From Deltaproteobacteria bacterium (GTDB taxonomy: Bacteria; Desulfobacterota; WTBG01; JAGOGO01): 64,000 bases of DNA. The notes beneath the pieces were generated by a model that saw only the letters and a program-made list of their open reading frames with translations, made no database searches and was not told where the DNA came from. The number at the start of each line of letters is the position of its first letter. The stretch's first letter is position 1. Both the position numbers and the translations under genes were made by a program. Positions 26,209 to 61,258 of the stretch are shown one piece after another. The stretch is from NCBI GenBank assembly GCA_017996625.1, contig JAGOGO010000002.1, positions 1,017 through 65,016 on the forward strand. Reading direction: 5' to 3'.

Positions 26209-26369
26209 GCTCTCTGGCGTGGCGATGAGTAAATCAGTCTATCGCAGAGTGGTCAAAAAGGTGCAGATGCAAGGCGCACGCAGTTCCGAGGAATGAGGCG
26301 TACAATTTAGTACGCCGCAATGACGAAGAACGAGTGCAACACAGCAGATGCGCCTTTTTCACCGCTCTG

Positions 26370-35829: not shown

Positions 35830-35874
35830 ATACTGCGCGTTTACTGTTATCCGTTTACGTGCTGCGCGTTAAAA

Positions 35875-36209: not shown

Positions 36210-36214
36210 AACCA

Positions 36215-37381: not shown

Positions 37382-37523
37382 ACACGAACTATTCGATTTG
37401 GGAAAATGCTGGAATGGGAAAATGGTTAAAGGTCTACAGGCAAGGACACCGTAGGAGATCTTCCATTATTCCAATTCCCTAATTCCCCAATCAACCAATT
37501 TTCCATTTTCTCATCCTTTCGTT

Positions 37524-38126
37524 TCACGGCGTGTATTTCCTATAGAGCCCTACCACCACTCCCACAATGCTCACCCGTTCGGCATCCACTACGAGCGGTA
37601 CGAAGTGTTCATTGGCCGGCCGGAGCGTAACGGTTGCGTCATTCCGGAAGAAGCGTTTTACAGTTGCTTCCCCGTCTACAAGTGCTACTACGGTCTGGCC
37701 GGTTTCCGCATAATCCTGCTTGCGCACGATGAGCACATCGTCCTCACGAATCCCTTCATCAATCATCGACTGCCCTTCTACCGTGAGGGCAAACGTTTCC
37801 TTTCCGGTCAGAAGCCATTCCGGAACATCTATCTCGTCAGCCACTTCCACTGGCTCGATCGGCTTTCCGGCAGCTACACGACCAAAAAGGGGAATGCGTA
37901 CTGCATTGGATTTGAGAGGAATAAGCTCTAAGGCCCGCTTCCGGTTTCCCCAGGGACTCTGCAGACACCCTTTCCGTTCGAGCTGCTTCAGCTGTTTTGC
38001 TACTGCATTGAGTGACTGCACGCCGAGAGCTTCCCGGATTTCTTCGTAGGAAGGCGGCCTTCCGTTCTTATCTATAAAAATCTTAATAAACTGGTAGGTT
38101 TCTTTCTGCTTTGCGGTAAGATACAT
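37524..38126 (-). CDS. lexA: LexA repressor (S24 peptidase)
   Basis: wHTH N-terminus, Ala-Gly cleavage site in RVAAGKPIEP, catalytic Ser (GQSMID) and Lys (TVKRF). Confidence 0.9.
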   Translation of the reverse strand: MYLTAKQKETYQFIKIFIDKNGRPPSYEEIREALGVQSLNAVAKQLKQLERKGCLQSPWGNRKRALELIPLKSNAVRIPLFGRVAAGKPIEPVEVADEIDVPEWLLTGKETFALTVEGQSMIDEGIREDDVLIVRKQDYAETGQTVVALVDGEATVKRFFRNDATVTLRPANEHFVPLVVDAERVSIVGVVVGLYRKYTP

Positions 38127-38598: not shown

Positions 38599-38684
38599 CG
38601 CCGGAGTGGTGAAACTGGTAGACGCAGGGGACTCAAAATCCCCCGGCCCTTGCGGCCATGTCGGTTCGATTCCGACCTCCGGCA
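38599..38684 (+). tRNA. tRNA-Leu (anticodon CAA), 86 nt, class II
   Basis: GCCGGAG TG GTGAAACTGGTAGACGC AGGGGA CUCAAAA UCCCC + long variable arm GGCCCTTGCGGCCATGTC + GGTTCGATTCCGACC TCCGGC A. The left boundary of the downstream defence island abuts its 3' end. Confidence 0.8.
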
Positions 38685-40011: not shown

Positions 40012-40233
40012 TGATTGGTCTCCGAACTCTGAAAAATGCCCAGGTTCTCTGAACCTCTTCAAAATCCAGGTGGCGTCCTGACCTTGAGCTGTTGCCACAA
40101 CATCGGCAGCATCACCATCTCAGTGAACGTTTCGCAGAAGGTAGCAACGGTTAGATGCTGTTATATTCCGTGCGTCGTTCATAGCAATCTTAGCCTATCT
40201 TCATCACATAAAATATAACATTTCGGCGATACG

Positions 40234-40527
40234 TCAAAGAATTTCAGGAGACGCCTCGGTCAAAGCACGTAGTCTGCTGGTGAACATTTTCCCGTCCTCG
40301 GTTCGAAGTTTGACTTTCTCCACCTGATCGTCTTCCATCCAGTCGTTGATGACCTTGAGCTGCTCGCGCAGCACCGGCAACATCGCCATCTCAGTGAACG
40401 TTTCGTGGCTGGCCAGGTCGAGAAAATCTTCTGGGGGTGAAGACAGAACCCCTCCCGGAACCATATATTCTCGAAAGTGTTTTAGCATCAAACGCTTGAG
40501 AGATAGCAGACGTGCCTCCTGATTCAC
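40234..40527 (-). CDS. hypothetical protein
   Basis: 97 aa with no family recognised. A degenerate duplicate of its internal segment (…ETFTEMAMLP…) lies at 40094-40145. Confidence 0.3.
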   Translation of the reverse strand: MNQEARLLSLKRLMLKHFREYMVPGGVLSSPPEDFLDLASHETFTEMAMLPVLREQLKVINDWMEDDQVEKVKLRTEDGKMFTSRLRALTEASPEIL

Positions 40528-40729
40528 GAATCATATCTAATTTTCGTGAATCGATAAAGCCTTATTCCTGCACCGAATTGCCTCAAATACAGTGTTACCC
40601 AAAAGGGGATGGGGGAGAGATCGTTGCCTCATAATAGATGTTACCGCCTCGGCCTCTTACCGGAGGGGACACATCATGGGCCTACGATCAAAAAGGAGGA
40701 CTCTCCTGGGGTCGAGCCCAATCTGTCAT

Positions 40730-40935
40730 CGGGCAGTTAAAACCGGCCACCGAGGGGTGAATCATAAGCGGCCATTTCGCCCGCCGGCTCTCTCCGTATG
40801 CTGAATTGTGATGCTGGGCTATACTGGGCAACGACACACCGTCGGTTCTTGAATGTCGCATCACGATAGACATTCTGGTGGTGAACCTTCTGTGTCCCAG
40901 AAGTTAAGTATTGTGTCCCCAGAATTCTCCCAGGT
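40730..40935. repeat. IS21-like terminal-repeat fragment family, copy 1 (about 200 bp)
   Basis: Shares gcagttaaaa..gcggccatttcgcc...gggcaacgacacaccgtcggttcttgaatgtcgcatcacgatagacattctggtggtgaaccttcTGTGTCCCagaagttaagtatTGTGTCCCCagaattctccc with 43001-43180 and 49315-49530. The tandem TGTGTCCC motifs resemble IS21-type multiple terminal repeats. Confidence 0.6.
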
Positions 40936-40936
40936 T

Positions 40937-41827
40937 TTATCTCTGCGTGGCATTGTCCGCCGCCAAGGGAAACAATTCCTGCAAGGCCGACACGAATTCA
41001 TCGAGCTGCAACTCGGGGCGATAGTAAGCACTTTCCCTTAATCGGACCATGCCCAGGCGGTTTGGGGTAGAAAAGTACTCGAAGACCAAATCACCCGCCT
41101 CTGATACATAAGGCTGGGAACGATACTGATCTCTCAGCACAAGGGAATGCCGCCATTCTTCTTCTGATGTCGTCGCGAGAATCGAGTAGAGGTCCAGAGC
41201 ATGATAGCGCCCGAATTCGCTCGTAGAATCGTTGAGCCGATCTCTGAAAGCAAAAAGCTTCATCATCAGATAAGTGTATGGATGGGGGATGAAAACCTCA
41301 GCGTTAAAAAGATTGCCTGAAGTAAGTTTCCCCCTGAGAAACACAGGCAAGAGGCCATCCTCTAGAGTAGGTGCCTCGTCAACCGGGTGAGCATGAATGC
41401 CAACGGACGGACTGGGACGTACCCGGCGCGCATCCACTTTTGCCCGTGTGGCTCGAAACCTGGTTTGCGGACCAGTGAGTATGTCTATCTTGATGCTGCC
41501 CGCGATGTCTCCCCGCGGACCGGGTTTGACGAACTGGTATTTTTCCGCACCGGGAACAACCCTGTAGCCTAACCTGTCAATGGCCTCGGCCAATGGTTTC
41601 AGTCTTGCCGATTCTATGAGCACTTCCGCTCGAAGGAAAAGGTCAATGTCGTTCGTTGACCGAGCTTCTGGCCATTCCTCCAGCAGCGTACGAATACCCA
41701 GCCGTTTCACATGCTCCATCTTAAGGTAGATACCGAAGCCTCCACCAATGATGAGTTTGATGTCTGAGCCTTCTATCTCATACAGCAAATCCAGCAGTGA
41801 TGTTTGAAGGTCGGGAATGGTAATCAT
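40937..41827 (-). CDS. nucleotidyltransferase-fold protein, AbiEii/DUF1814-like (type IV TA toxin family)
   Basis: LIIGGGFGIYLKMEH...RSTNDIDLFL matches the AbiEii GG.A...[R].[ST].DIDF minimal NTase motif. 296 aa. 4 bp overlap with the upstream partner. Confidence 0.5.
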   Translation of the reverse strand: MITIPDLQTSLLDLLYEIEGSDIKLIIGGGFGIYLKMEHVKRLGIRTLLEEWPEARSTNDIDLFLRAEVLIESARLKPLAEAIDRLGYRVVPGAEKYQFVKPGPRGDIAGSIKIDILTGPQTRFRATRAKVDARRVRPSPSVGIHAHPVDEAPTLEDGLLPVFLRGKLTSGNLFNAEVFIPHPYTYLMMKLFAFRDRLNDSTSEFGRYHALDLYSILATTSEEEWRHSLVLRDQYRSQPYVSEAGDLVFEYFSTPNRLGMVRLRESAYYRPELQLDEFVSALQELFPLAADNATQR

Positions 41828-42915
41828 CGATGAACTTGATTGAGGTTATTTATTATGTATGATCTCAGCTGCTCGGCGGTCTCTTGGTCGCGCTTGTCAC
41901 CGGCCTTCAGCTCGAGGTATACCTGTATTGGGGATGCCCACCAGAAATTCCCCTCATACCGGCTATCAAAGAAAACCGTTTCATCCTCGGTTTCCACAAG
42001 TTCGAGGTTCGGGAAACGATCGGACTGGCTTCCTGGTACCCTCTCTATCAGCACATCAAGCCGAGGGCAATAAACAGACAAGAGAGGCCCGCGTTCCATG
42101 ACAGCATACCGTTTCACCGATGATGTCCCAGTAGCCACCATAGGTAAATCCAAGGATTGCGACGCTTCACGTAACAATTCCGTAATCGGTCCCGTTTCCT
42201 CGGAAACCTTGAGACGAACCCGTGTCCTGATGTTGGGAGAAGCGTAGCTTTCACTCAGCTTTTGCAGAAGCTTGTCTGGTTGCAGAAGCCGAATGGCGCC
42301 TTCACGGGTAATGATCAAGTCCTCTTGCAGCGTTTTCAATACCTTCGAAACTGTGGAGATGCTCATCGGGGTTTTATCCCAGCGCTCCGCCAGCAGGTTC
42401 CTTCGGTTTATCTCCAGCCAGACATCTTGAACGGTGTCATAGAGGGAGCGGGCAAGAAAGACCCTTCCTACCATGGAACTGTTTCTGCGATAGATATTCT
42501 TGATCGGAGCAGAAGAAGTGAAGCGATTCTTCCCGCCGCTGCGGAAGACGGAAAACTTGCCCGGTGAAATCACGACACCATTCCCACAGAGATCGATCCC
42601 GCTGATGCCATCCTTCTCAAGCTCCAGCAATTGCTGGTCGTTGAGAAAAGGCACAAACAGCATCAGGTTGTATCCTTTAGGCAGTTTCACCGCCTTCAGC
42701 CGGTTTATTCCATCCTGAAACGACTTGGGAGTCGAAAGCGCTTTGCACTCGACCACGAATCGTGCTTTATCTTTACCCCACGATGCCTCAACAAGCGCAT
42801 CGAAGCGGCTGTTTACCCCTTTGTCTAGCTCACTCTGCAAAAGACGAAAGGAGAGCGGGGGTAGCGATACTTCGCCTTTCTGCAGCTGCTTGATCATTTC
42901 TTTTTCCGTAGGCAT
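41824..42915 (-). CDS. putative AbiEi-like partner protein (antitoxin/regulator) of the NTase
   Basis: Position and translational coupling only. The 363 aa sequence has no motif I recognise, and is larger than a typical AbiEi. Confidence 0.3.
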   Translation of the reverse strand: MPTEKEMIKQLQKGEVSLPPLSFRLLQSELDKGVNSRFDALVEASWGKDKARFVVECKALSTPKSFQDGINRLKAVKLPKGYNLMLFVPFLNDQQLLELEKDGISGIDLCGNGVVISPGKFSVFRSGGKNRFTSSAPIKNIYRRNSSMVGRVFLARSLYDTVQDVWLEINRRNLLAERWDKTPMSISTVSKVLKTLQEDLIITREGAIRLLQPDKLLQKLSESYASPNIRTRVRLKVSEETGPITELLREASQSLDLPMVATGTSSVKRYAVMERGPLLSVYCPRLDVLIERVPGSQSDRFPNLELVETEDETVFFDSRYEGNFWWASPIQVYLELKAGDKRDQETAEQLRSYIINNLNQVHR

Positions 42916-43000
42916 TTTCCTAATCTCCTATTTTTTCCTATTCAAGAAAATAGCCTCAATTAGGAAAATATGCAAGCATCATTTTTAGGTTTCCCCCAAT

Positions 43001-43180
43001 GGTGTCATCGGGCAGTTAAAAGCGGCCATTTCGCCCACCGGCTCTCTCCGCGTGCTGAAGTGTGGTACTGGGCTATACTGGGCAACGACACACCGTCGGT
43101 TCTTGAATGTCGCATCACGATAGACATTCTGGTGGTGAACCTTCTGTGTCCCAGAAGTTAAGTATTGTGTCCCCGGCATT
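43001..43180. repeat. IS21-like terminal-repeat fragment family, copy 2
   Basis: See copy 1. It lacks the 24 bp insertion present in copy 1. Confidence 0.6.
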
Positions 43181-43347
43181 TCGGACATCAGCCTGCAGTC
43201 GTTTTTAAATTCTTTCTGTGACGGGTTTGACGGGTTTATGATGGGTTTGGCGTTGTGTTTTTGGCAAAAAGGCTTCTGCCGATTGAGGTGCGCTGTCGGT
43301 CGATTATCGGTCGATTTCGTGAGCTGGTCAACTACCGTCATGCTCGT

Positions 43348-43560
43348 AAGGCAACAAACAGAGTCAGCCCCTGAAAAGGGACATGCTCTGCATGGTCGGC
43401 CCACCTTCTCTTCGTGGCGACGATCGGTCATCACTATCCATCAATACACAGCTCTGCAGCCTTTAGCTATCCTTCGTTCTCGTTTTTCGTCTTCTGCTTC
43501 GTGAATACAGCTTAGCACCTACGATGTGCTATGTCGGGACTGACCCTACTGCCGTTCCCC
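43348..43560. repeat. ~200 bp repeat (aacaaacagagtcagccc...cactatccatcaatacacagct...cagcacctac..atgt..gccgttcc), copy A
   Basis: Near-identical blocks at 47795-48000. Both lie immediately downstream of an IS21-like fragment in the same orientation, bracketing the McrBC cassette. Confidence 0.75.
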
Positions 43561-43863
43561 AGTTACAACGAGTTGTTTGATGATTGACTTTGCGAATAGG
43601 ATACGCCGTCAGCTCTTACTGCTGTCGCCTTGAGGTTTACGATTAACAAATTCTGCTTTACGATTACTTAACGATTCGCCCAGCATTTTCACGCGGTATC
43701 GAGTGGAGCGACCAGCCCCAACCCTATCACCAAAAGCATTATTTGCCTGTCCCTATGATCCCTAATAAGCAACCAAGAAAGCGATTGATCATCTTTTTCG
43801 AAGCCTATAGTTCTTAATAAGACCTGACGCTTTAAGCCGCAGCAACGAGCCACTTGTACCAAT

Positions 43864-45090
43864 TTATTGCTGCAAGTGACTTACTCCTAATGTCTGAAGT
43901 AAATTCCCCATGAACATCTGGCCGGCAGCCTCGAGGTCTCCAGATAGTGCGAAGGCCATGGTTCTCACTCTAATTTTTTCACCAACCTTTTCATTCATCG
44001 AGGCATCTAGAGGAACCGGATAAATCAGTATTGCTTCCTCACAGTTCTTCATCTCTGCATAGGTCACAACTTGTGTCACATCATGCGCCTCCGGTTTGTG
44101 CTTCGCCTTGTATTTGGTATCGAGGACACAGAGGGCCTTGTCAGTATGAGCATCATACAAAACGAGATCGATCTGAAACGAAAGGTCGTTGTTCTCGCCA
44201 ACCGTAACGGTCTCCTGCTTTCCTAATCTGATGCTCGCGGGCAGATGAGTTCTTAGCCACTCCGCGACAAAGAGTTCATACAGCCTTGCCATATCCACCA
44301 CAAATGGGAGCATTGTCTTATCGCCCGAATGATGTGTCGGACCGCTATGCTCCAGAAAAAAGCGGCAGAGGGCATGCAACGGTCGATAATCTTCATTGAG
44401 CCGGTTATATAACCGTTTGATACAATTCCTAGGGGAAACCGCGTTCAATGATGCAAAGCCGCGAAGTGCATGGAAGGCGCGACGAACTGTCGGCAGCACT
44501 CGCTCAGTGCAGATTCCGCTGCGAGCGATAAGCGCCATAGTCCAGCAGAGGATCTGATTTTCTTCGATGTCAGCAGTATGCTCCTGATAATGACAGTGCA
44601 CCTTAACGTCCCAGGGACTCTTAATACATTGAGGAACATCCACTCTGCCCCTGATAAAAGGGAGTTGATCGTTCTCATTCAAGTATGTTCGATACAAGCC
44701 CTTGCGGCTCCTGTCGAGTATCCGCTGGGCTAAGATATTGGCTAAGCGTTCATAAAACTCCTGGATAGAACTGCAGCCGGTAAGACCTTCGAGGATCTGA
44801 AAACTATTCAGCTGGTAGGCGTACTCGAGCATACGAAAAATGTTGCTCAGTTCTACCTTTGGTTTGAGACTAATACCTAAATCTGGGGTGCAAGGCAAAT
44901 ACCCGACCCATCCCTGAGAACTAAGGAGCCACTGGTTTTCAGTCTTTGGGCTGGGGAAATCGACAGAAACCTTGTCCTTATATTTCTTCCAGATAAGCTC
45001 TCCCTCTTCAGGGGATAGTGCGTTAGAGGGAAACATCTGAGAGACATACTCAGTTAATGAGATAACTCTGCGTCCGCTCTCTTCATTCAC
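43864..45090 (-). CDS. mcrC: McrC subunit of McrBC modification-dependent restriction endonuclease
   Basis: PD-(D/E)xK core VLDTKYK. 408 aa. 4 bp overlap with mcrB upstream. Confidence 0.8.
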   Translation of the reverse strand: MNEESGRRVISLTEYVSQMFPSNALSPEEGELIWKKYKDKVSVDFPSPKTENQWLLSSQGWVGYLPCTPDLGISLKPKVELSNIFRMLEYAYQLNSFQILEGLTGCSSIQEFYERLANILAQRILDRSRKGLYRTYLNENDQLPFIRGRVDVPQCIKSPWDVKVHCHYQEHTADIEENQILCWTMALIARSGICTERVLPTVRRAFHALRGFASLNAVSPRNCIKRLYNRLNEDYRPLHALCRFFLEHSGPTHHSGDKTMLPFVVDMARLYELFVAEWLRTHLPASIRLGKQETVTVGENNDLSFQIDLVLYDAHTDKALCVLDTKYKAKHKPEAHDVTQVVTYAEMKNCEEAILIYPVPLDASMNEKVGEKIRVRTMAFALSGDLEAAGQMFMGNLLQTLGVSHLQQ

Positions 45091-47039
45091 GGGATGATCT
45101 CTTTCCCAATTTTGTTCCAGCTGAATTCCTCTACTCGTTGATGCTGATCAAAAAAGTATTCTTCCAGATAGGGCTCTATTTCCATTCGCCAGATGTCCTC
45201 AAGATGATCTGAAAGCTTTTCCCGGAGAAAGAACGAAATACCGACTTCATAGTGTGGATCGCCAATCTGGTTGTTGAGCTTTTTTAAAACAGCAATAAGC
45301 CCTTCAGGATCAAAACCGTTCTTCTCATGAAAAACACGCAAGACATCATAATTTGGCTGGAGAGCAAGGAAAGCAAACCTGCGGCGAAGGGCGTGATCAA
45401 CTAATGCAATTGACCGGTCAGCGGTATTCATGGTACCGATGATTCGAACATTCTCTGGGATGCGCAGCGAGCCGCCGCTGGCAAGGGGAACCTCTTTATT
45501 GCGATACTCGAGAAGATACATCAGCTCGCCAAAGACTCGTGCCAGATTGGCCCGATTTATTTCATCAATGATCAGAACGCAACGGCCCGTACATTCTGCC
45601 GCCTTCCGGCAGAATTCAAGAAACCTGCCGGGTACCACCGGATAATCGAGCTGCCCGCCGGCATTGGCCTTGGGACGGATTCCCTGCATGAAATCCTCGT
45701 AAGCATAGGCGGGATGAAACTGCACCAGGTCACTGAAGCCATCACCACCGCTGATGAGGTGTCTCGCCAAGTGCTCGGCAATAAATGTTTTGCCGGTGCC
45801 CGGGGGCCCATAGAGAATGGCTTGCCCTTTGCGCTCGATGGCGCGGACCCAGCGCTGTAATGCGTCTTGCGGAAACCCCGTCTTAGCGGCACATTCAGAT
45901 AAAGAATACTTATCAGGTGGTATCTCAGCAGGTGGAAGAAGCGCTTCGAGCCGCTCAAACTCCCCTTTTGTGAGAGGGGTAATGGTCTTCATGAACTTAG
46001 CCTGGAGTTCTGTGGGAATGGGGACGCCGGTATCTGAAATCCGGTAATAGTCTACGGCAACAGTATGCTTGTAGTCTTTCAGTTCGGGCCGGAACCGGTA
46101 TCCGCTCTTCACTATCCCTGCAGCAAGAAGAATCTTTTTCCCCTTGTTGGTAACCAAGTGGTCTCCAGGTTTAAGGTTGATAAAGTTGAAAAGCTGCCGT
46201 GCTGCAATTTTCCGCTGTCCTTCCTTGAGATTCGGGCGTCTAGTACGATACATCTCGATAAGTTCAGCATGTGATTTTCCCGTTAGGTCGAAGGCAAGAG
46301 GGGCGAACCCTACTGCTGCAATCGAGTCTCTCTTGAAATCTCCCCACTCACGTCCCCCTTTACTTGCACCGATCTGCCAGTAAGACCCTTGTGAAGTCTT
46401 AATCAAGGACTCTATGAGATCAACACCTTCCTGCACTTCCGTCCCGTAATGCATCAGATGGTTCAGCTGGTAGAAATCCTGGCTAGGGTCGAGTTGCTTG
46501 AGATGAAGGAAGGCGTCAGATATCAGTCGGTATTTCTGCGCAGTGGAGAGTTTTTGGGTTTTCACATTGATGCCGACCTTCTGGAGAAAGTTCTCGGTCT
46601 TGTTGTTCCAGTTGGGCAGCACATCTGGATATCGAGCCTGAAGAATGGGCGCCCAGAATGACCTGGCGAAGATGGGAATCTTGAATTTCCCCTCGAGGAT
46701 CTTTTCTGCTTTTTCAAAGGGATCATCAGGGGAGTCGATGAGGTATTCAAGATTTCTTTTCACTTTGCTAAGCTGACCAGATATCCTTGGCATGCCAAGC
46801 CGAATATATGCCGGCCCCTCCAGCTTCCTGGAGTACTCGAAAACTTTATCACTCAGATCCTTTTTCGATACTTCGGAAAGGTACTTCTTACTGAGCAGCG
46901 TTGTGCGCAGATCTTCGGCAAGTTGCCGGTGCCGCTCGGCATACTCAGTCCCTTCCTTCGTATCCTGCGCACACCAGGAGGAATAGGAAGCGAGAAGCGT
47001 CTTGAGGTCCTCATCGGAAAGAATAAAAGTACTGCTCAT
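45087..47039 (-). CDS. mcrB: McrB-family AAA+ GTPase subunit with long N-terminal DNA-recognition region
   Basis: Walker A ILYGPPGTGKTF and McrB-specific box RCVLIIDEINRANLARVFGELMYLLEYR. 650 aa. Confidence 0.85.
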   Translation of the reverse strand: MSSTFILSDEDLKTLLASYSSWCAQDTKEGTEYAERHRQLAEDLRTTLLSKKYLSEVSKKDLSDKVFEYSRKLEGPAYIRLGMPRISGQLSKVKRNLEYLIDSPDDPFEKAEKILEGKFKIPIFARSFWAPILQARYPDVLPNWNNKTENFLQKVGINVKTQKLSTAQKYRLISDAFLHLKQLDPSQDFYQLNHLMHYGTEVQEGVDLIESLIKTSQGSYWQIGASKGGREWGDFKRDSIAAVGFAPLAFDLTGKSHAELIEMYRTRRPNLKEGQRKIAARQLFNFINLKPGDHLVTNKGKKILLAAGIVKSGYRFRPELKDYKHTVAVDYYRISDTGVPIPTELQAKFMKTITPLTKGEFERLEALLPPAEIPPDKYSLSECAAKTGFPQDALQRWVRAIERKGQAILYGPPGTGKTFIAEHLARHLISGGDGFSDLVQFHPAYAYEDFMQGIRPKANAGGQLDYPVVPGRFLEFCRKAAECTGRCVLIIDEINRANLARVFGELMYLLEYRNKEVPLASGGSLRIPENVRIIGTMNTADRSIALVDHALRRRFAFLALQPNYDVLRVFHEKNGFDPEGLIAVLKKLNNQIGDPHYEVGISFFLREKLSDHLEDIWRMEIEPYLEEYFFDQHQRVEEFSWNKIGKEIIP

Positions 47040-47101
47040 AAGGGACTCCTTTTCAATACGTCATGCACAGTGTCATTGGTTTTCAGCACCAGTTCCCATG
47101 A

Positions 47102-47521
47102 TCACCGAAAATCCCTTCCCTCAATCAGGGTACAGACTGCTTCCAGGAATTGATTGAATGCGGGGGTAGGTTCCGGCTTTCCGGAAGGGCCACCTTTGCT
47201 GTTCGGGTAATTATTGTATCCTCGGCACGTGATTGATCTTCCGCTAATAGCAATATCGACTAACCAGTGAGTACCGTCACAGATTCCTGGATTTTGATAC
47301 TCCAGCTGCCAGTCCCAGATACCTATCTTATCAAGTCTAGTCCAGAAGCTCATCCATTTCTCCTCGTCAATGGAGAGTACCTCCTGTTGAGGTTCTGCCG
47401 ACGCGTGCTGAGTTGCCTCATACTGCAGGTTGTCGCCGTGAAGCTTCAAGGAATAAAAAGGTCCCGGATAGCCACCGATAGCAACAATAAACCGGTGCGG
47501 CAAGAAGCGTGTGTGGTGCAT
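47102..47521 (-). CDS. hypothetical 139 aa protein immediately upstream of mcrB
   Basis: ORF only, 62 bp from the mcrB start. No family recognised. Confidence 0.3.
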   Translation of the reverse strand: MHHTRFLPHRFIVAIGGYPGPFYSLKLHGDNLQYEATQHASAEPQQEVLSIDEEKWMSFWTRLDKIGIWDWQLEYQNPGICDGTHWLVDIAISGRSITCRGYNNYPNSKGGPSGKPEPTPAFNQFLEAVCTLIEGRDFR

Positions 47522-47794
47522 TTCAATATCTCTTCGTTTCCATCTTTACGTGAAGAGGAATTGGGGTGGTTCATCCCATTGCTGCATTAAGTATGGTGTC
47601 CTCAGAATTTCCGTATCACAAGAATTTTCCCCACTACTCTTAGAGCTTCGTTTTTGGCAGCAAAACAGGGCTTCTAAAGCGATGTTTGAGCCTCTTATTC
47701 AGCAAAGCTAATGTAATTTCAATTCCTTATCCAGGTCCGACCCGGGAACCGACGCGTCTCAAGTCCGGGCCTGACCCCGGACAGTTTTCCGAGG

Positions 47795-48000
47795 CAATAA
47801 ACAGAGTCAGCCCAGGACATGGGACATCTCTGCATGAACGGATCAGCTTCTCTGAGTGATGCCAGTCGTTCTTCACTATCCATCAATACACAGCTGTGTA
47901 GCCTTTAGCTATTCTTCGTTCTCGCTTTTGCCCTCTGTTTCGTGGAGGTAGTCAGCACCTACAATGTCCCCTGTCCGTGCCTGGGCCCGTTGCCGTTCCT
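47795..48000. repeat. ~200 bp repeat, copy B (preceded at 47588-47615 by an IS21-like tail fragment cattaagtatggtgtcctcagaatttcc)
   Basis: Aligns with 43348-43560 across the whole length with scattered substitutions. Confidence 0.75.
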
Positions 48001-48131
48001 CATTTTTGCGAATTTGTACGCTTTCAAAAAAAATATTTTACTTAATAAGAGCAGAGTATTCACCTGCGAAAGGATATTTATTTTTTAGGGGGCTAAGAAA
48101 TAAATCAAGAGTAGTCTACTCAACAGCGCTA

Positions 48132-49049
48132 TCAATGTTGGCCCTCCAATAACTCGTACGCGAGAAGCACATTTTCCAGTGCCTTTTTCTGTGTCCTTGT
48201 GAGCTTTACATCCTTGTAATATTGATTTCCGTTGAGTCTTACCGTAGTTTCTTTGGAGCATGCGATAGATCTGATCATGTCGAGATCGGAAGAATCCAAT
48301 TCGATCATGCACCACTCCCACACCTCCGTGTAATTGTCTCGTTCGAAGCCTGCATACTTCTTGAATTTGTTGCCATCGACTTTTATGTCAAAAGATTCAA
48401 TAAAGAGCCACTCATCTCCATAGTACTGCACAACAAGATATAGATTGGTGAGTCGCATATCATCAGTTCTACCGAAACAAACATAAAAGCCGTTTTGAGA
48501 TCTGCTGGTTGGTGAAGTTTGGTCACAGTATAAAGTCATCTCCTCCATATCGTCTCTTTTCTTGCGCAGCTTTTTCAAAGTGTCCGTTACCCTCTTTTCC
48601 TTTTCTCTCTTGTAATAGTTAAACTTCTCTTCATAAAGCTTCTCTTCTGGATTCACTTCCATGAGCTGGGAATAGAGCATTATATTACGATCAAGATCGG
48701 TCGAAGGGACGGTCTTCACTTCCTCAAACAATCTTTTCTCTTTTTCTTCCTTCGTTTCTGCTTGCTTCGCTTCGCTTTGAGTTATAGTCTGCTTCTCTTT
48801 TGTCTGTTTGTCTGAACATTCCCGAATGAGATTTGAAAAAAACCCTATACCTGCAATAACAACGAATACGGTAAGGCAACCATGACTCGACTTCGTCGAT
48901 TTCTTCTTTTCCTTCGCATAAGGTGGCTCCTTATAGGATAGTTCCTTGCCCTGCAACATTGCACCGCAATGTTTACACTTGATAGCCTCTTGCTTTATTT
49001 CTTCTGCACAATAAGGACACTTTTTTGTTGCAGACATCCTCGCCTCCAA
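48132..49049 (-). CDS. zinc-ribbon plus single-TM protein with unknown C-terminal domain (low-GC, likely horizontally acquired)
   Basis: CPYCAEEI...CKHCGAML, then TM helix LTVFVVIAGIGFF, a K/E-rich linker and a 170 aa C-terminal domain. Noticeably A+T-rich relative to its flanks. Confidence 0.4.
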   Translation of the reverse strand: MEARMSATKKCPYCAEEIKQEAIKCKHCGAMLQGKELSYKEPPYAKEKKKSTKSSHGCLTVFVVIAGIGFFSNLIRECSDKQTKEKQTITQSEAKQAETKEEKEKRLFEEVKTVPSTDLDRNIMLYSQLMEVNPEEKLYEEKFNYYKREKEKRVTDTLKKLRKKRDDMEEMTLYCDQTSPTSRSQNGFYVCFGRTDDMRLTNLYLVVQYYGDEWLFIESFDIKVDGNKFKKYAGFERDNYTEVWEWCMIELDSSDLDMIRSIACSKETTVRLNGNQYYKDVKLTRTQKKALENVLLAYELLEGQH

Positions 49050-49079
49050 CCGATAGTGGATATCTAACGAAAGCTAACT

Positions 49080-49530
49080 TTGTTAGCAGCAGTTAAAAGC
49101 GGCCGCTGAAGGGAGAATCAAAACTGGCCATTTTCGAGGATAATACCTTGTGAGAGTATAGCCACTGGTAAGGAGATGGCTGTGTGAGTAACTACTTGAA
49201 AATGGCCAAGCAGAACCTGATTCTTGCTCTCAAAACCTTAGGCTGGTCCATGCGACATATCCAATGGGAGATCGGTGTGCGCCGCGAGGCCATCTCAGAA
49301 TACGTGCGCTGCTCGGATGCAAAAGCGGCCATTTCGCCCACCGGCCCTCTGCGCATGCTGAATTGTGATACTGGTCTGTACTGAACAACGACACACCGTC
49401 GGTTCTTGAATGTCGCATCACGATAGACGCTCTGGTGGTGAACCTTCTGTGTCCCAGAAGTTAAGTATTGTGTCTCCGGACTTTCGGATTATTACATTAA
49501 GTATGGTGTCCCCAGAATTCTCCTTGCCGT
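49080..49530. mobile_element. IS21-like remnant: about 35 aa IstA-type N-terminal HTH fragment (49184-49384 ORF) followed by terminal-repeat copy 3 with three TGTGTCCC-type direct repeats
   Basis: ORF MSNYLKMAKQNLILALKTLGWSMRHIQWEIGVRREAISEYVR resembles the IS21 IstA HTH (…IK…G.S.R.IA.ELG.SRNTV.KY). Bases 49315-49530 align with copies 1 and 2. No intact transposase follows. Confidence 0.4.
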
Positions 49531-49576
49531 TAGAAACTAAGAATCAAGATATGAACCCGATTGTTGCACCACTACT

Positions 49577-52500
49577 TTATAGGTAATCCTGCCACGTCAC
49601 AATCGACGATTGTGGATCAAGAAAGAAATCAGTATCCTTGAATAGGAAGTAAGGCCAATCCTTTGAAATACTTGACTCAGCTAGTCTATATCCTGCTTGG
49701 TCGTACCAGTCAATGTGATGTTTCTCCTTTACGGGGAGAATGCGCAGTTTCGGTCCCGTGTACGTTGAGAAATCATCGACAAGTGTAACGGGAATTTTCC
49801 GTTGAGTCGGATAGCGTTCGTCTTCTATCGTAGCTCTAGCATCCTTTCTTTCGAATATCCATTTATCAACTAATCTGGGTTCCAGAACAGCATCGCTGAT
49901 TTCGCCGACGTTGTTCCAATACTCCTTGGCTATAACTGCAGCATCTGGGCGCGTGTAGGCTTCTTTCCTTGTCAGGAGATGTGTAGCAATAGGATCAAGC
50001 ATACCCCAGCTTATCATATCCTTATACCATAACACCGACCACGGCAATTCGCATCGCCGCCAGCGTTCCAGAAAATCTCCATCGCCGCCATCATGCTCAA
50101 GAATAGACCCAATGGCTGATCCAAGAGCCCAATTCAATCCATAGATAAAATACTTAGATGCAAAGTCATACCAACGAGAAACACTCTTGCCTGATGGAAT
50201 GCGATCGGATCTATAAGGTGCCATCCACCAGGTCAACACATCTTGCCAAGCCACAGTGGACTTCCCGCTTGTTAGATCACGAACTCCAAAGGCTTCAATC
50301 TGGCTAATCGCCTCAACTAAGGAGGTGATATTGTTGATCCGCTCGGAATCGTTCCAAGTGACGAAGTCCACTGCCTTCGTCATGATGGTCTTGATATTAG
50401 AGAGCTTGGAGATCAGCACCTTTCCATCTCTCGGCGCCAAACCTGTATGATATAAAGCGCGGCGATATTGTTTTTCAGGATAAATGAACTCTGTTATTGC
50501 TTTTCCTCGCTGCAGAAATATCTTTTCTGCAATTGAGTCACTGAAACCCATTTTACAATGAAATGCTAGTGTGTTATGCCACAGCGACCGAAGTGAATCC
50601 TCCATATTTGCTTCGGGATTCAAGCCTTCAAGTTCGACAATACTAGTGAGCAATTGCTGATCAAGCGTATCTAAAGATCTTAAGAGATTCCCTTCCTCGC
50701 CTTGCGCCGAAGAAAATGCAGTCCGTTCAAGCCAAGCGATAAACTGATTGATATCCTTGCTCCCGGATAGGCGCGACCAGAGATTCTCAATCCGAATTGT
50801 CAAAGCATACAACGGAGAGTTTAGTCTTTTGACGTTTTTGACTTGCCGCTCGGTCATGGCGCGGATGATCTTCTCATATGCCTCTTGAGAAATCTTCTGA
50901 GCTTCTCCAAGGGCATTTGTGGAAAGTAGTACAAGTGTTTTACCCTCTGTAGAAACTCCTGGCCTTCCAGCCCGCCCCGCTACGTTAATTATCTCCCTTG
51001 AGGTCACAGGTTGTCTTGAATTCACAGGCTGTCGAAAGCGTAAGAGTGATGGTATCAGAATTGTCTCAAAAGGAAGATTCACGCCTTCAGACAGAGTTGA
51101 GGTTGCAATTACGATATTGATTACATGCTCTTCAATAAGTTCGATGAGAAGGCGAGACATCACCGGCGGCATCTTGCCATGATGAAGGACTATACCCTTC
51201 TGAAGGAGACGGTGTTCACGGGAAATCGGACCGAAGTAATCAGCGCATGAAGCCAAACAGCGAGATAAAAGGGCTTGATCCCTGCTGCGCTTTGGCTGCC
51301 CGAAGAAATCTGGATATTGGATGTCTGCCCAATCATCTGTGAGTAACCTTATGAATGTTTCAGCATATTGTTCAGGGTGCTCGGTTACTGATATAAGAAC
51401 CGAGTGTCTTTTCCCGTCCAAAGGTCGAGCGAAGTGCATGGCCGCCCATAATAGATGTGCCCGCATGCGCTTCTCAACACTATCATCTTTCTTAAAAGCC
51501 CTTATTACCGGCGGATGCGGGGGAAAAGGGTTAGCAACGTAGGGGGCACTTTCCTCCTCATTAACTAATAGACGTTGTCCATCGAGCACATCATATCGAA
51601 TAGTGGTCACTCCATTGTCACTACACCACAGTTGGCCAAAAAGTTGACGAGTACTTCTATAATCTGGGGCAATAGCGCGAGATTCATTCTTTCCTGTCAT
51701 CCAAGCTGACAGAACATCCCGGATATCTGTTGCTACAGCAGACAACGCTACGAATGTGGTATGTGGAGAACATAAGGTTTTCAGCCGAGAGACAAGGCCC
51801 TCCAACCGTAGAGAGCGGCTTTGAGCTGTGGCCAGAGCTTCGTAATCCCCTGTGAATGCAACTGAATGGGCCTCATCAATAATAACGCATGATAGCTTTT
51901 TCAGCATTGTTTGACCTAACAAGCGAAGAAGAGCATCTGCTTTTTCATGCGTCGAAATTAATACGATAGGTTGTTCTGCAATATTGGTTAGGTCCGATGG
52001 GCCAAAATCATTGCCACCATAAAGTGACGTAACTACGACGCTCGTTGCTCTGATGTTGCGCAAAGAGCGTGCAATGTTCGATTCAACCTCACTCGAAAGT
52101 GCTTTTGAGGGAGTGAGATAGAGAATCAATGGGGCGTCATTCTTGATGTGTCGATCTTCATGTCCAAACAAATGACGTAGTATCACCAATTCCGCGACAC
52201 GCGTCTTACCTGAGCCAGTAGGTGTGCAAAGAGCAAAAGAACCTTCTGATGCAATGCCAGCAATACCAGCTTGCTGAGATGGCCAAGTTAGTATCTTTCT
52301 TTCCAGAAATGCGACTCTCGCATAACGGTTTAATGCCTGACGACCGTCATCGGATACCTTTTCTGTGAGAGGTAAGAGCGATGTCCAAAGAGCCTCGTTC
52401 TTAAACTCTCGTGCGATTGCAGCGAAAATAACAGAAAGCAACCAAGAGAACCTATCACTATCGTAACGTAATGCGCTGGCGACCTTCTCAAGAGTCTTTA

Positions 52501-53152
52501 TAGCCGAGTCGATCCGCACCTCATCTCCCCACCTCATCCATGCTGTAAGTACTCCGATCGCGCGTAATAGCTGATTGAGAATCACAATACCTGTCTGATG
52601 TTTTGTTGAATCGCCTTTACCACCATGTCGCCAAAAGTCTAGCAAAAGTCGTTGTGCTCGAAAAAAATCCGCACGAAGAAGAGCTGTAAGAATCTGTGAT
52701 GTCTTATCCGGTAGAGTATGTTCAGACAATATTCCTAAAGCTCTCGCGGGGTACCCAGCTAATTGGTAAATGGATGCAGCAAGGAGTACCACTGGAATTG
52801 GGAAATCGACAGGTGAACTTGTCGCCGCCCACTCAAATATCTCTGCAGCGCGGCGCAGGTACCTACGGCTATCGGACATATCTGGAGCAGCCATTCCAGC
52901 AATCAAAAGCTTTTCACCCTCGGTTAAACGAACAATGAGTTCATCATTTGTCCATGAAGGCAGTCCCTTCGCACCAGCGCGGAGCCTTGTATGTTGGGCA
53001 TAGAGGCGTGCAATACCCCGACTGAGCGATGGTCCGGCCACGCGCTCTGCAAAGTCGTGAATCAAGTCCAAGCTGCCTTCAGCCATATATTTCATTTGGA
53101 GCCATCCATCCTCTCGTAGAGTGAAGAGATGAGGATATGAACGCCAGGGCAA
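49577..53152 (-). CDS. large SF2 DExH helicase, HamB-like (Hachiman-type helicase partner of DUF1837)
   Basis: Motif I CTPTGSGKT, II VIIDEAHS, VI VAGRAGRPG. 1191 aa with long N- and C-terminal extensions. The start overlaps the upstream DUF1837-like gene by 61 bp. The helicase call is secure; the Hachiman assignment is inferred from gene pairing. Confidence 0.5.
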   Translation of the reverse strand: MPWRSYPHLFTLREDGWLQMKYMAEGSLDLIHDFAERVAGPSLSRGIARLYAQHTRLRAGAKGLPSWTNDELIVRLTEGEKLLIAGMAAPDMSDSRRYLRRAAEIFEWAATSSPVDFPIPVVLLAASIYQLAGYPARALGILSEHTLPDKTSQILTALLRADFFRAQRLLLDFWRHGGKGDSTKHQTGIVILNQLLRAIGVLTAWMRWGDEVRIDSAIKTLEKVASALRYDSDRFSWLLSVIFAAIAREFKNEALWTSLLPLTEKVSDDGRQALNRYARVAFLERKILTWPSQQAGIAGIASEGSFALCTPTGSGKTRVAELVILRHLFGHEDRHIKNDAPLILYLTPSKALSSEVESNIARSLRNIRATSVVVTSLYGGNDFGPSDLTNIAEQPIVLISTHEKADALLRLLGQTMLKKLSCVIIDEAHSVAFTGDYEALATAQSRSLRLEGLVSRLKTLCSPHTTFVALSAVATDIRDVLSAWMTGKNESRAIAPDYRSTRQLFGQLWCSDNGVTTIRYDVLDGQRLLVNEEESAPYVANPFPPHPPVIRAFKKDDSVEKRMRAHLLWAAMHFARPLDGKRHSVLISVTEHPEQYAETFIRLLTDDWADIQYPDFFGQPKRSRDQALLSRCLASCADYFGPISREHRLLQKGIVLHHGKMPPVMSRLLIELIEEHVINIVIATSTLSEGVNLPFETILIPSLLRFRQPVNSRQPVTSREIINVAGRAGRPGVSTEGKTLVLLSTNALGEAQKISQEAYEKIIRAMTERQVKNVKRLNSPLYALTIRIENLWSRLSGSKDINQFIAWLERTAFSSAQGEEGNLLRSLDTLDQQLLTSIVELEGLNPEANMEDSLRSLWHNTLAFHCKMGFSDSIAEKIFLQRGKAITEFIYPEKQYRRALYHTGLAPRDGKVLISKLSNIKTIMTKAVDFVTWNDSERINNITSLVEAISQIEAFGVRDLTSGKSTVAWQDVLTWWMAPYRSDRIPSGKSVSRWYDFASKYFIYGLNWALGSAIGSILEHDGGDGDFLERWRRCELPWSVLWYKDMISWGMLDPIATHLLTRKEAYTRPDAAVIAKEYWNNVGEISDAVLEPRLVDKWIFERKDARATIEDERYPTQRKIPVTLVDDFSTYTGPKLRILPVKEKHHIDWYDQAGYRLAESSISKDWPYFLFKDTDFFLDPQSSIVTWQDYL

Positions 53153-54012
53153 TGGAATTCGACTGATGTTAGTTCACGCATCCCAGTATATCGTTCGTGG
53201 GGAGAGTCTGTTGGAATCCATGTCTTCCTAAGCTTGGGGCAATCACCACAAACATACACACTCAAGTCGCAACGAACGGAAAGCTTCCTCGATGCATATT
53301 GCCACCAATATTTCTGCAATGCGGAGATCCAAGTTCGGCTGTACTTGTCATCACGATAATCCTTCAACGCATCGATCAGTCGGAGCAAGTCAATTGGTCG
53401 AGTCACGGCCTGACTGAGTTTCTCATGATTATCGGATATCAGTTGAGACGAATGATCTCTGGTACACTTCGCTTCGCATGCCAGCCAAGCTATGATATCC
53501 CCATCCTTATTTAGCGCAAAAGCTAGGCCGTCATCGCCTGTCCGCCCTATTACTTGCCTCGACCACTCATCAGTTTGTTTCATGTATTCGAGCTGCTGGA
53601 AAGCAATTACATGAGTGCGAAAAAGGTAGACCGGAACTTTCCATTCGTATTCACCATCTCCTGCATAGTATTCGGCGACAATTCCGGCGATAATCTCGCC
53701 AAAGAAAGCTTGAAGAGCGATATTGCCCAGCTTGTGTGGATATCCAAAGGCCGGGTCGATTTCAGTATCATAATGGAGAGGATGTAGTGAGTTTTCAAGT
53801 GGTGCCCGCAAAGATTGGCGAGCACCATCATGGGCGTGGTCAATATATGTGAAAAGTTCATCTAGTTCGGGTTGAGTAACGGTCCGTTTAGCGCGAATAA
53901 GCAGATGGCAATAGCGAGGGGATTTTTTGTTATGAGTCTTCTCTACCGTTAGCCAAGAATTTAGCAGTCTCAGTCGCGGATGTTCAGCAGAAACTATTGG
54001 GTCGGATTGCAT
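53092..54012 (-). CDS. HamA-like (DUF1837-like) PD-(D/E)xK nuclease-fold protein
   Basis: LNKDGDIIAWLACEAKCT gives a D...EAK nuclease motif. 306 aa, translationally coupled to the helicase. Confidence 0.4.
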   Translation of the reverse strand: MQSDPIVSAEHPRLRLLNSWLTVEKTHNKKSPRYCHLLIRAKRTVTQPELDELFTYIDHAHDGARQSLRAPLENSLHPLHYDTEIDPAFGYPHKLGNIALQAFFGEIIAGIVAEYYAGDGEYEWKVPVYLFRTHVIAFQQLEYMKQTDEWSRQVIGRTGDDGLAFALNKDGDIIAWLACEAKCTRDHSSQLISDNHEKLSQAVTRPIDLLRLIDALKDYRDDKYSRTWISALQKYWWQYASRKLSVRCDLSVYVCGDCPKLRKTWIPTDSPHERYTGMRELTSVEFHCPGVHILISSLYERMDGSK

Positions 54013-55934: not shown

Positions 55935-55947
55935 AAAAAAGTCCGAT

Positions 55948-59972: not shown

Positions 59973-60082
59973 ACGCTTATCTCCTTAAAGCGGACGATAC
60001 CAGGAGCGCTTTCTCATCGCCAAAACATTCGGTCCCAAATCACAAAAATCACAAAAAGGGTGTTCTCTTGTGATTTTTGTGA

Positions 60083-61252: not shown

Positions 61253-61258
61253 GCTACC

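What the first reader, a model, noticed from the sequence alone, without database searches (positions are those of the whole stretch)
43001..48000. McrBC cassette bracketed by direct copies of a composite repeat (IS21-like end fragment plus ~200 bp element)
Copies at 43001-43180 plus 43348-43560 and at 47588-47615 plus 47795-48000 lie in the same orientation on either side of the 139aa-mcrB-mcrC block. This looks like a cassette delimited by recombinogenic repeats, a possible route for swapping defence modules in and out by homologous recombination.
Basis: seen in the sequence. Interest (0 to 1): 0.6.

Follow-up and report, generated by a model that had tools for sequence, protein, structure and literature searches.

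The report
IS21-remnant repeats shuffle defence genes
The McrBC restriction genes sit in a tRNA-linked defence island whose gene modules are separated by same-direction copies of a decayed IS21 transposon fragment, and metagenome contigs from related strains suggest that recombination between these copies adds, removes and reorders modules, which is an ordinary mechanism caught in an unusually clear example.

Summary
The repeats are real, but their structure differs from the description. R2 (43349-43564 and 47792-48005, 78% identical) brackets 139aa-McrB-McrC in direct orientation. The "IS21-like" part belongs to a larger element, R1. R1 has three long direct copies: 40724-40934, 43003-43185 and 49081-49488. 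The piece at 47578-47609 is only a 32-nt unit. The spacers between R1 and R2 are unrelated, so this is not one duplicated composite.

R1's left end is colinear with an intact IS21-family element, from the terminal TGT through about 54 codons of istA. The next ~140 nt are of unknown origin.

R1 separates defence modules: an unknown gene pair, McrBC, a Zn-ribbon gene and Hachiman HamB. In relatives it abuts Lamassu LmuB and a PDC-S02 nuclease. Its right boundary is the same to within 5 nt in five contexts.

Short-read contigs from other samples show R1 recombinants:
- An "empty site" contig (363aa gene-R1-HamB) lacks both McrBC and the Zn-ribbon gene.
- Two contigs carry the junction ZnR-R1-296aa.
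- The crossovers fall in the 43-44-nt stretches that are identical between copies.

No R2-mediated variant was found. The best reading is homologous recombination between IS-remnant repeats. This is a known kind of process. All variant evidence is short-read and needs long-read confirmation.

The parts
38600..38684 (+). tRNA-Leu(caa). It marks the border between the core genes (lexA, imuB-like, dnaE2) and the defence island.
   Evidence: ARAGORN; Rfam tRNA 51.6 bits; Pfam on the neighbours
40724..40934 (+). R1a, a short form of R1. It holds the IS21-type terminus TGTCATCGGGCAG, two AAAA(C/G)CGGCC repeats and the 168-nt core (40764-40931). It ends in a U3-type unit 3 nt before the stop codon of the 296aa gene.
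40937..42915 (-). Module of two overlapping genes (296 aa and 363 aa) of unknown function. There are no Pfam or PADLOC hits apart from a weak HTH match.
43003..43185 (+). R1b, a short form of R1. 43003-43043 is the IS21 IRL terminus fused to istA codons ~46-54, through a deletion between AAAAGCGGCC repeats. 43044-43185 is the ~140-nt part of unknown origin with units U1 and U2. It ends at TTTCGGA.
43186..43348 (.). Spacer A. It is unique sequence, unrelated to spacer B.
   Evidence: z 2.6; also present after a different R1 variant in L012
43349..43564 (+). R2a, a non-coding ~216-bp repeat. On the minus strand it lies 300 nt downstream of McrC.
   Evidence: no significant fold; no consistent ORF, judged by reading the two copies (they differ by 1-nt indels)
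43864..45090 (-). McrC (408 aa)
   Evidence: Pfam PF10117 E 2.4e-41; 2187 homologues, the nearest non-identical at 66%
45087..47039 (-). McrB-type AAA+ GTPase (650 aa)
   Evidence: Pfam AAA_5 E 1.3e-20; precomputed DUF8426 and McrB_lid hits
47102..47521 (-). 139-aa orphan ORF upstream of McrB
   Evidence: Only itself among 5.8e9 proteins; weak DUF6438 match below the cut-off
47578..47609 (+). R1d, a solo U3-type unit of R1. It begins exactly where R1b stops when both are placed on R1c.
47610..47791 (.). Spacer B, unique sequence
47792..48005 (+). R2b, the second copy of R2. On the minus strand it lies 127 nt downstream of the Zn-ribbon gene. It has 20-nt imperfect inverted arms at 47808-47827 and 47964-47983.
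48132..49049 (-). Zn-ribbon protein (305 aa; called as 301 aa) of unknown function. Its GC content (~40%) is lower than that of its neighbours.
49081..49488 (+). R1c, the long form of R1. It holds the IS21-family IRL (TGTTAGC...), the leader, a 66-aa istA N-terminal remnant ORF (49184-49384) and the ~140-nt part of unknown origin.
49489..49523 (+). U3 unit following R1c (TTATTACATTAAGTATGGTGTCCCCAGAATTCTCC). It lies 50 nt before the HamB stop codon.
49577..54012 (-). Hachiman-type HamB helicase (1191 aa ORF; called as 1172 aa) plus an upstream overlapping 306-aa gene
   Evidence: PADLOC HamB E 4e-68; Pfam DEAD/ResIII

Best explanation
The region is part of a defence island next to tRNA-Leu. 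All its genes read on the minus strand. Its modules are separated by direct copies of R1.

R1 is a dead chimeric repeat. Its left part is the left end of an IS21-family insertion sequence: the terminal inverted repeat, the leader and the first ~54 codons of istA. This is fused to ~140 nt of unknown origin that carries 21-nt units (U1-U3). R1 encodes no enzyme.

Because the copies are 88-92% identical and share 43-44-nt (b/c, a/c) or 107-nt (a/b) perfect stretches, the host's homologous recombination machinery can cross over between them. This can delete, excise as a circle, duplicate or re-insert whole modules. It can also swap flanks with R1 or IS copies on incoming DNA.

In the window's strain, the McrBC block plus the Zn-ribbon gene lie between R1b and R1c. 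In another strain a single R1b/c hybrid joins the two outer neighbours directly.

What is shown:
- the repeat anatomy;
- the IS21 origin of the left part;
- hybrid R1 copies whose crossovers fall in the identical stretches;
- different defence cargo at one R1 boundary.

What is inferred:
- that the variants arose by RecA-type recombination in cells rather than in the assembler;
- the direction of the events (gain versus loss);
- that an older event placed the McrBC block (43186-47577) between units U2 and U3 of one R1 copy;
- that R2 is a bystander small repeat (possibly MITE-like), not the exchange site.
For: - Anatomy: three long R1 copies plus one 32-nt unit, all direct.
- R1b ends at R1c position 49488 and R1d starts at 49488.
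- IS21 origin, protein level: a profile of the small ORF finds 1038 N-terminal matches. One is P0007 (E 2e-12), which scores 279.6 bits on NCBIfam IS21 transposase (cut-off 160) and is followed by IstB.
- IS21 origin, DNA level: R1 aligns colinearly from the first base of that IS (L020 2559) through istA codon ~54.
- Decay: omega of the remnant ORF is 0.44-0.75. The short forms are deletions between AAAAGCGGCC repeats.
- L037 equals window 41511-43185 joined to 49321-50831. Its R1 is b-type up to 43082 and c-type from 49429.
- L010 and L011 come from two assemblers and two samples. They equal 48976-49428 joined to 40829-41245, and share SNPs 41222/41225 that are absent from the window strain.
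- L012 is a c/b hybrid followed by spacer A.
- L013, L014 and L028/29 carry other cargo after the same boundary.
- L034 has other sequence in place of R1a, breaking at 40930.
- Contigs of the window's strain often end inside R1, as expected for a multi-copy repeat.
- Module GC content differs: ~40% for ZnR, ~49% for McrBC and ~46% for HamB.
Against: - All variant junctions come from short-read metagenome contigs. Some are very short and of low coverage (L010 is 860 bp at 1.7x; L012 is 544 bp at 1.3x).
- The 'empty site' rests on a single 3-kb contig.
- Crossovers in the longest identical stretches are also what an assembler mis-join would give.
- Pure homologous recombination does not explain why R1's right boundary is the same to within 5 nt next to five unrelated flanks. 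It also does not explain why its left boundary is exactly the IS terminus next to at least four flanks. Something more specific must have made the first junctions, such as transposition of intact IS copies followed by recombination, or an unknown site-specific step.
- No relative was found that carries ZnR without McrBC, so the proposed older insertion between U2 and U3 is inferred from sequence alone.
Confidence: 0.6

Rival explanations
1. R1 is a dedicated docking site. An unidentified site-specific recombinase or transposase, encoded elsewhere, inserts defence cassettes at a fixed point at the right end of R1 (TTTCGGA/TT, the U2|U3 junction), much as an integron captures cassettes. The McrBC block (43186-47577) would be one such insertion. 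Homologous recombination between R1 copies would be secondary.
For: - The right boundary of R1 is the same to within 5 nt in five unrelated contexts: spacer A/McrBC, U3/HamB, LmuB, PDC-S02 and the novel L028 flank.
- R1b and R1d together reconstitute the R1c arrangement exactly at 49488.
- Every cargo gene next to R1 reads towards it, with its 3' end 3-80 nt away.
- The cargo consists of distinct defence systems.
- In L013 the hexamer CAATGA lies both left of the IRL and 4 nt right of the boundary, a possible target duplication.
Against: - There is no integrase or transposase in the 64-kb window or in the related loci.
- R1 has no attC-like palindrome and no significant fold.
- R1 lacks an IRR, so IstA could not move it as a unit.
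- The observed crossovers lie at different positions inside R1 (43083-43125 versus 49431-49474), not at one core site.
- The breakpoints differ by 2-5 nt between contexts.
- Only about six independent contexts exist.
Confidence: 0.15
2. The McrBC cassette entered by a single crossover between an R2 copy on a circular donor and a resident R2, leaving R2a and R2b as the flanking direct repeats. It can leave by the reverse reaction.
For: - R2a and R2b are direct repeats bracketing 139aa-McrB-McrC together with R1d and spacer B.
- 78% identity would fit hybrid sites from diverged partners.
- R2b has 20-nt inverted arms, so R2 could be a mobile or site-like element.
Against: - No contig shows ZnR-R2-spacerA-R1b, the product expected from R2a x R2b. 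All contigs that reach across keep ZnR-R1d-139aa-McrB.
- At 78% identity with short identical runs, R2 is a much poorer recombination substrate than R1.
- R2 was found nowhere outside this strain.
- The model leaves the exact R1b/R1d complementarity as a coincidence.
Confidence: 0.1
3. The repeats are inert debris and the apparent rearrangements are artefacts. R1 and R2 are decayed mobile-element fragments with no present role. The hybrid contigs are mis-assemblies through a multi-copy repeat, or belong to other R1 loci of the genome.
For: - Assemblies visibly struggle at R1, and many contigs end inside it.
- The hybrid contigs are short, and switches occur exactly in the longest shared stretches.
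- A second R1 locus exists in the same MAG (GCA_035342615.1 holds both L016 and L030). R1 flanks from elsewhere could therefore be mis-joined.
Against: - The shared stretches (43-44 nt for the b/c and a/c pairs) are shorter than the final k of MEGAHIT k141 contigs and probably of the SPAdes runs, so graph collapse is unlikely (inference).
- L010 and L011 give the same junction from different samples and assemblers, and carry private SNPs in the flanking gene.
- L037 carries SNPs shared with another strain (L032) in the 363aa gene.
- L013 is 93% diverged throughout and has its own cargo, so it cannot be a chimera of window-type reads.
Confidence: 0.15

Closest known systems
Homologous recombination between dispersed IS copies or IS remnants (IS-mediated deletion, duplication and cassette exchange, as known for IS26, IS6110 and IS1 copies)
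   Same: Direct repeats derived from an insertion sequence flank accessory genes. Hybrid repeats have crossovers in identical stretches. Strains show presence/absence and order polymorphisms.
   Different: The repeat is a 180-410-bp dead chimera with no transposase, no IstB and no right end. It recurs specifically at junctions between defence modules, all in one orientation.
IS21 family insertion sequences (IstA/IstB; TG...CA ends with multiple terminal repeats)
   Same: The left terminus TGT(C/T)A..GGGCAG, two AAAA(C/G)CGGCC repeats, the leader and istA codons 1-54 are colinear with an intact family member (L020 2559-4994).
   Different: The element is truncated after the HTH. The rve domain, IstB and IRR are absent. 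About 140 nt of R1, including the unit at 47578-47609, has no similarity to the IS.
Integron cassette arrays with attC sites, including those carrying anti-phage cassettes
   Same: There is an array of same-direction modules. Each is followed at its 3' end by a copy of a conserved repeat. The cargo is defence systems, and one repeat boundary is constant.
   Different: There is no IntI and no attC-type imperfect palindrome (fold z-scores +0.4 and +1.0). The repeat is 170-410 bp and IS-derived. Crossovers are not at one core site.
ISCR 'common regions' next to variable resistance genes (own knowledge)
   Same: A conserved element has one precise boundary, beyond which unrelated cargo is found in different contexts.
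   Different: ISCR elements encode an IS91-like rolling-circle transposase. R1 encodes nothing functional.
Chromosomal defence hotspots next to tRNA or core genes (for example the P. aeruginosa core defence hotspots, PMC10250203)
   Same: The site next to a tRNA and a conserved SOS cassette holds a strain-variable set of defence systems: McrBC, Hachiman, an RT module, a DUF499 system, and Lamassu in a relative.
   Different: In the described hotspots, exchange is attributed to the flanking core genes or to mobile elements. Here an internal repeat separates the individual modules.

Membership tests
IS21 family insertion sequence | IstA transposase with N-terminal HTH, rve catalytic core and C-terminal domain | tested here: not met
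   Only the first ~54 codons (the HTH) are present. They are homologous to IstA P0007 (E 2e-12; NF033546 279.6 bits for P0007). There is no rve domain anywhere in the window.
IS21 family insertion sequence | IstB AAA+ helper gene downstream of istA | tested here: not met
   No IstB_IS21 match above the cut-off. The only hit is a sub-threshold P-loop match inside McrB.
IS21 family insertion sequence | Left terminal inverted repeat starting with TG and carrying repeated subterminal motifs | tested here: met
   TGTTAGC.../TGTCATC... plus two AAAA(C/G)CGGCC motifs align with the IRL and IRR of the intact IS in L020.
IS21 family insertion sequence | Matching right terminal inverted repeat ending in CA | tested here: not met
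   There is no inverted copy of the IRL motifs in R1 or nearby. The right part has direct units of a different sequence.
IS21 family insertion sequence | 4-8 bp target-site duplication | tested here: inconclusive
   None is seen at R1a, R1b or R1c. A possible ATGA/CAATGA duplication occurs only in L013.
McrBC type IV restriction system | McrB AAA+ (AAA_5) GTPase gene followed by an overlapping McrC (PF10117) gene | tested here: met
   AAA_5 E 1.3e-20, plus McrB_lid and DUF8426. McrC PF10117 E 2.4e-41. The genes overlap by 4 nt.
McrBC type IV restriction system | Restriction of modified DNA | not testable with these tools
   Needs phage or plasmid challenge assays.
Integron cassette / attC | attC site: an imperfect palindrome (R''-L''...L'-R') that folds as single-stranded DNA, with an IntI integrase at the array head | tested here: not met
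   R1 folds no better than shuffles on either strand (z +0.41 and +1.01). No integrase domain was found in any ORF tested.
MITE (for R2) | Short non-coding element with terminal inverted repeats, target duplication and many dispersed copies | tested here: inconclusive
   R2b has 20-nt arms that are 80% complementary. R2a has none by the same scan. No target duplication was seen. Only two copies are known, and there are none in other collections.
Hachiman (neighbouring module) | HamB helicase with a HamA (DUF1837) partner | tested here: inconclusive
   HamB E 4e-68. The overlapping 306-aa partner has no Pfam or PADLOC hit.

The most novel reading that the evidence does not exclude
R1 is not just recombination-prone debris. 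It would be the conserved attachment element of a previously undescribed cassette-capture system in Thermodesulfobacteriota. In this reading, defence modules (McrBC, Hachiman, Lamassu, PDC-S02 and unknown genes) are inserted one by one, always in the same orientation, at a fixed point at the right end of an IS21-derived element. An enzyme encoded elsewhere in the genome would do this. It would be functionally integron-like but unrelated to attC/IntI.
Probability: 0.1. Interest if true: 0.8.

Novelty: new member of a known kind. Interest (0 to 1): 0.4.

Why it matters
How chromosomal defence islands gain and lose individual systems is still poorly documented outside model bacteria. This locus gives a concrete, testable case in an uncultured anaerobic-reactor lineage. 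A dead IS21 fragment, copied between modules, appears to serve as the portable homology that lets whole defence modules be dropped, reordered or replaced between co-occurring strains. The constant right-hand boundary of the repeat next to four different defence systems is not explained by plain homologous recombination, and it is the one feature worth a closer look.

Tried and rejected
- Rfam scan of 38-52 kb: only the tRNA was found, so R1 and R2 match no described RNA family.
- RNA folding of R1 and R2 on both strands: z-scores between -0.87 and +1.01, so there is no support for a structured RNA or an attC-like hairpin.
- Promoter and terminator scan: fewer hits than in shuffles, so it is uninformative. 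The one exception is a -35-like ATGACA in the IRL terminus that faces the 363aa gene.
- tblastn of the small ORF and blastn of R1c and R2a against plasmids: no match.
- Pfam and PDB searches with the small ORF: no match. Only a profile search against 1.84e9 proteins revealed the IstA relationship.
- Exact-pattern scans for R1 in genome contigs (two patterns) found nothing. One R1 pattern in viral contigs also found nothing. A second scan of metagenome contigs returned only the L014 locus again. The R2 scan in viral contigs found nothing.
- Testing R1 as an internally deleted IS21 with both ends (a MITE): rejected, because no IRR motifs are present.
- Testing the ~140-nt part of R1 as an IstB 3' end or IRR: no similarity to the intact IS.
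- Treating the 139-aa ORF as a conserved McrBC partner: rejected, because it is an orphan.
- Looking for a near-identical McrBC donor: the nearest McrC is 66% identical.
- Several resemblances of the U units to Tn7, Tn402 or Tn3 ends, recalled from memory, were considered and dropped as unsupported.
Full report
**1. What is in the sequence**

The window is identical to JGI metagenome contig 3300010353 Ga0116236_10000497. NCBI names the same proteins as coming from a Thermodesulfobacteriota MAG.

Core genes run up to a lexA / imuB-like / dnaE2 cassette at 32848-38126. A tRNA-Leu(caa) gene follows at 38600-38684. From there to the end of the window, all genes lie on the minus strand and look like a defence island. 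In order they are:
- Fic;
- a 296aa+363aa pair of unknown function;
- McrC, McrB and a 139-aa ORF;
- a 305-aa Zn-ribbon protein;
- a HamB-type helicase (PADLOC E 4e-68) with a 306-aa partner;
- a reverse transcriptase module, a DUF499 protein and others.

**2. The observation**

Two repeat families are present.

R2 (43349-43564 and 47792-48005) is a direct repeat with 78% identity and z = 72 against shuffles. It brackets the 139aa-McrB-McrC block.

The other part of the claimed composite belongs to R1. R1 has a 168-nt core with three long direct copies, at 40764-40931, 43018-43185 and 49321-49488. Pairwise identity is 88-92%.

The piece at 47578-47609 (R1d) is only a 32-nt unit. It matches the extension that follows the third copy (28/32, z = 13). 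It also matches the last unit of the second copy at 22/28.

The DNA between R1 and R2 on the two sides is unrelated (z = 2.6). The description is therefore right about order and orientation. It is wrong to treat the two parts as one duplicated composite, and it omits the two other full R1 copies.

**3. What R1 is**

The longest copy (49081-49488) holds a 66-aa ORF. This ORF has no Pfam, PDB or plasmid match. It has only three close homologues among 5.8 billion proteins.

A profile of those three, searched against 1.84 billion representatives, gave 1038 hits, all at protein N-termini. The best full-length hit, P0007 (504 aa, E 2e-12), is a bona fide IS21-family IstA. It scores 279.6 bits on NCBIfam NF033546 against a cut-off of 160, and has rve and Mu-transpos_C_2 domains. 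It is followed by IstB in five contigs.

Comparing those contigs delimits an intact 2436-bp IS (L020 2559-4994). R1 is colinear with this IS from its very first base. The shared features are the terminus TGT(T/C)A..GGGCAG, two AAAA(C/G)CGGCC repeats, the leader, the start codon and about 54 istA codons. The similarity ends at ...GCCCACCGGC.

The remaining ~140 nt (49347-49488) have no similarity to that IS. They carry 21-nt units: U1 is TGTGTCCCAGAAGTTAAGTAT, U2 follows it, and U3 lies after the third copy.

The two short copies arose from the long form by deletions between the AAAAGCGGCC repeats.

The remnant ORF evolves with omega 0.44-0.75. R1 folds no better than shuffled sequence, and Rfam finds nothing.

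R1 is therefore a dead chimera of an IS21 left end and unknown sequence. It is not demonstrable for the rest of that copy or for the 47.6-kb unit.

**4. R1 as the junction between modules**

On the minus strand every module ends a few to 80 nt before an R1 copy.

Contigs recovered through exact-protein look-ups give further contexts:
- L013 (JGI 3300010346, about 93% identical) has the 363aa gene, a long R1 and then a Lamassu LmuB gene where the window has McrBC.
- L014-L019 have a formylglutamate amidohydrolase gene, R1 and then a PDC-S02/NucS-like gene.
- One MAG (GCA_035342615.1) holds both this second locus and the tRNA-Leu island.
- L028/L029 have 62 nt of other sequence after R1b.

In all of these the similarity stops within 5 nt of TTTCGGA(TT). 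On the left it stops at the IS terminus next to at least four different flanks.

**5. Evidence for exchange**

L037 (JGI 3300009669, 3018 bp) equals window 41511-43185 joined to 49321-50831. It reads 363aa gene - one R1 - U3 - HamB, with neither McrBC nor the Zn-ribbon gene. Its R1 is b-type up to 43082 and c-type from 49429. The switch therefore lies in a 43-nt stretch that is identical in both copies.

L010 and L011 come from two samples and two assemblers. They join the Zn-ribbon gene through a c/a hybrid R1 to the 296aa gene, and they share two private SNPs in that gene. This is the junction expected from a circle or tandem duplication made by R1a x R1c, or from another module order.

L012 is a c/b hybrid followed by spacer A. 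L034 has other sequence in place of R1a.

By contrast, all of the contigs read for the Zn-ribbon gene (18) or the 139-aa gene (20) that reach across the gap keep ZnR-R1d-139aa-McrB together (10 places listed per look-up). No R2a x R2b product was seen. R2 was found nowhere else.

**6. Most likely mechanism**

The most likely mechanism is homologous recombination between R1 copies (confidence about 0.6). It explains three things:
- the hybrids;
- the crossover positions, which differ between events (43083-43125 versus 49431-49474);
- the presence/absence of the McrBC+ZnR block.

The exact abutment of R1b and R1d on R1c (both at 49488) suggests an older event. In that event the 4392-bp McrBC block (43186-47577) would have landed between U2 and U3 of a single R1. 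This is inferred only.

The diversity of left flanks can be explained by recombination with intact IS copies inserted elsewhere. The near-constant right boundary is not explained. It keeps alive a site-specific 'docking' model (about 0.15), although no recombinase, palindrome or fixed crossover point supports that model.

The strict R2-to-R2 model gets about 0.1. The reading that the variants are assembly artefacts gets about 0.15. The private SNPs, the independent assemblies and shared stretches shorter than the final k-mer argue against artefacts, but only spanning reads can settle it.

**7. Comparison with known systems and novelty**

McrBC itself is ordinary. Both Pfam signatures are present, there are 2187 homologues, and the nearest non-identical one is 66% identical. 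The 139-aa ORF is an orphan.

IS-remnant-mediated recombination and strain-variable defence hotspots next to tRNA genes are known kinds of thing, for example PMC10250203. The arrangement resembles an integron array or an ISCR common region in outline, but it fails their defining features.

I rate it a new member of a known kind with moderate interest. Its value is a clear natural example and the unexplained fixed boundary.

Noticed in passing
window 3113-3177, 3258-3289, 12384-12413, 12670-12699, 12775-12810, 16921-16985, 35923-35975, 36118-36149: A family of short palindromic intergenic repeats with the core GTCATTCCCGCG(C/T)AGGCGGGAATCCAG occurs in both orientations (REP-like). It is unrelated to R1 and R2.
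   Followed up: no
window 11242-11368 and 26244-26370: There is a 127-nt inverted repeat at 80% identity. Its first arm directly abuts tRNA-Ser(cga) at 11150-11240. It could mark an inversion or an old integration site.
   Followed up: no
window 3874-7848: A 1324-aa ORF contains eight in-frame ~384-nt repeats, each starting with GACATCACCGAGCGCAAGCAGGC. It appears to be a multi-PAS-type sensor.
   Followed up: no
window 40079-40134 and 40350-40405: A 56-nt direct repeat (86% identical) lies at the 5' end of the Fic gene and 270 nt beyond it. Strains differ here: Fic is called as 370 or 341 aa, and the neighbouring ORF as 97 or 76 aa.
   Followed up: partly
window 43008-42981 (minus strand): Read outwards, the IS21-type terminus of R1b gives a -35-like ATGACA, a 16-nt spacer and AAAAAT. 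This lies about 70 nt upstream of the 363aa gene and is a possible hybrid promoter supplied by the IS end.
   Followed up: no
L036 1-161 (JGI 3300010346), corresponding to window 50726: A 56.8-kb contig that is otherwise 99.995% identical to the window diverges inside the HamB gene for its last 161 nt. This could be a truncated HamB in that sample or a contig-end artefact.
   Followed up: partly
window 42439-42742; L032, L037: The 5' third of the 363aa gene carries a dense patch of SNPs in some strains (35 within 300 nt in L032, two of them shared with L037), while the rest of the gene is nearly identical. This looks like a recombination tract ending next to R1b.
   Followed up: partly
L013 203-214 and 617-632: CAATGA occurs immediately left of the R1 terminus TGT and again 4 nt beyond the right boundary. 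It is a possible target duplication and is seen only in this copy.
   Followed up: partly
window 55008-56916 and 57198-63999: Further defence-type modules lie beyond Hachiman: a reverse transcriptase (RVT_1) with a neighbour that carries a precomputed STM3845 hit, a DUF499 protein, an AAA_16/AbiEi-like protein and a D12-type methyltransferase fragment. No R1 copy separates them.
   Followed up: no
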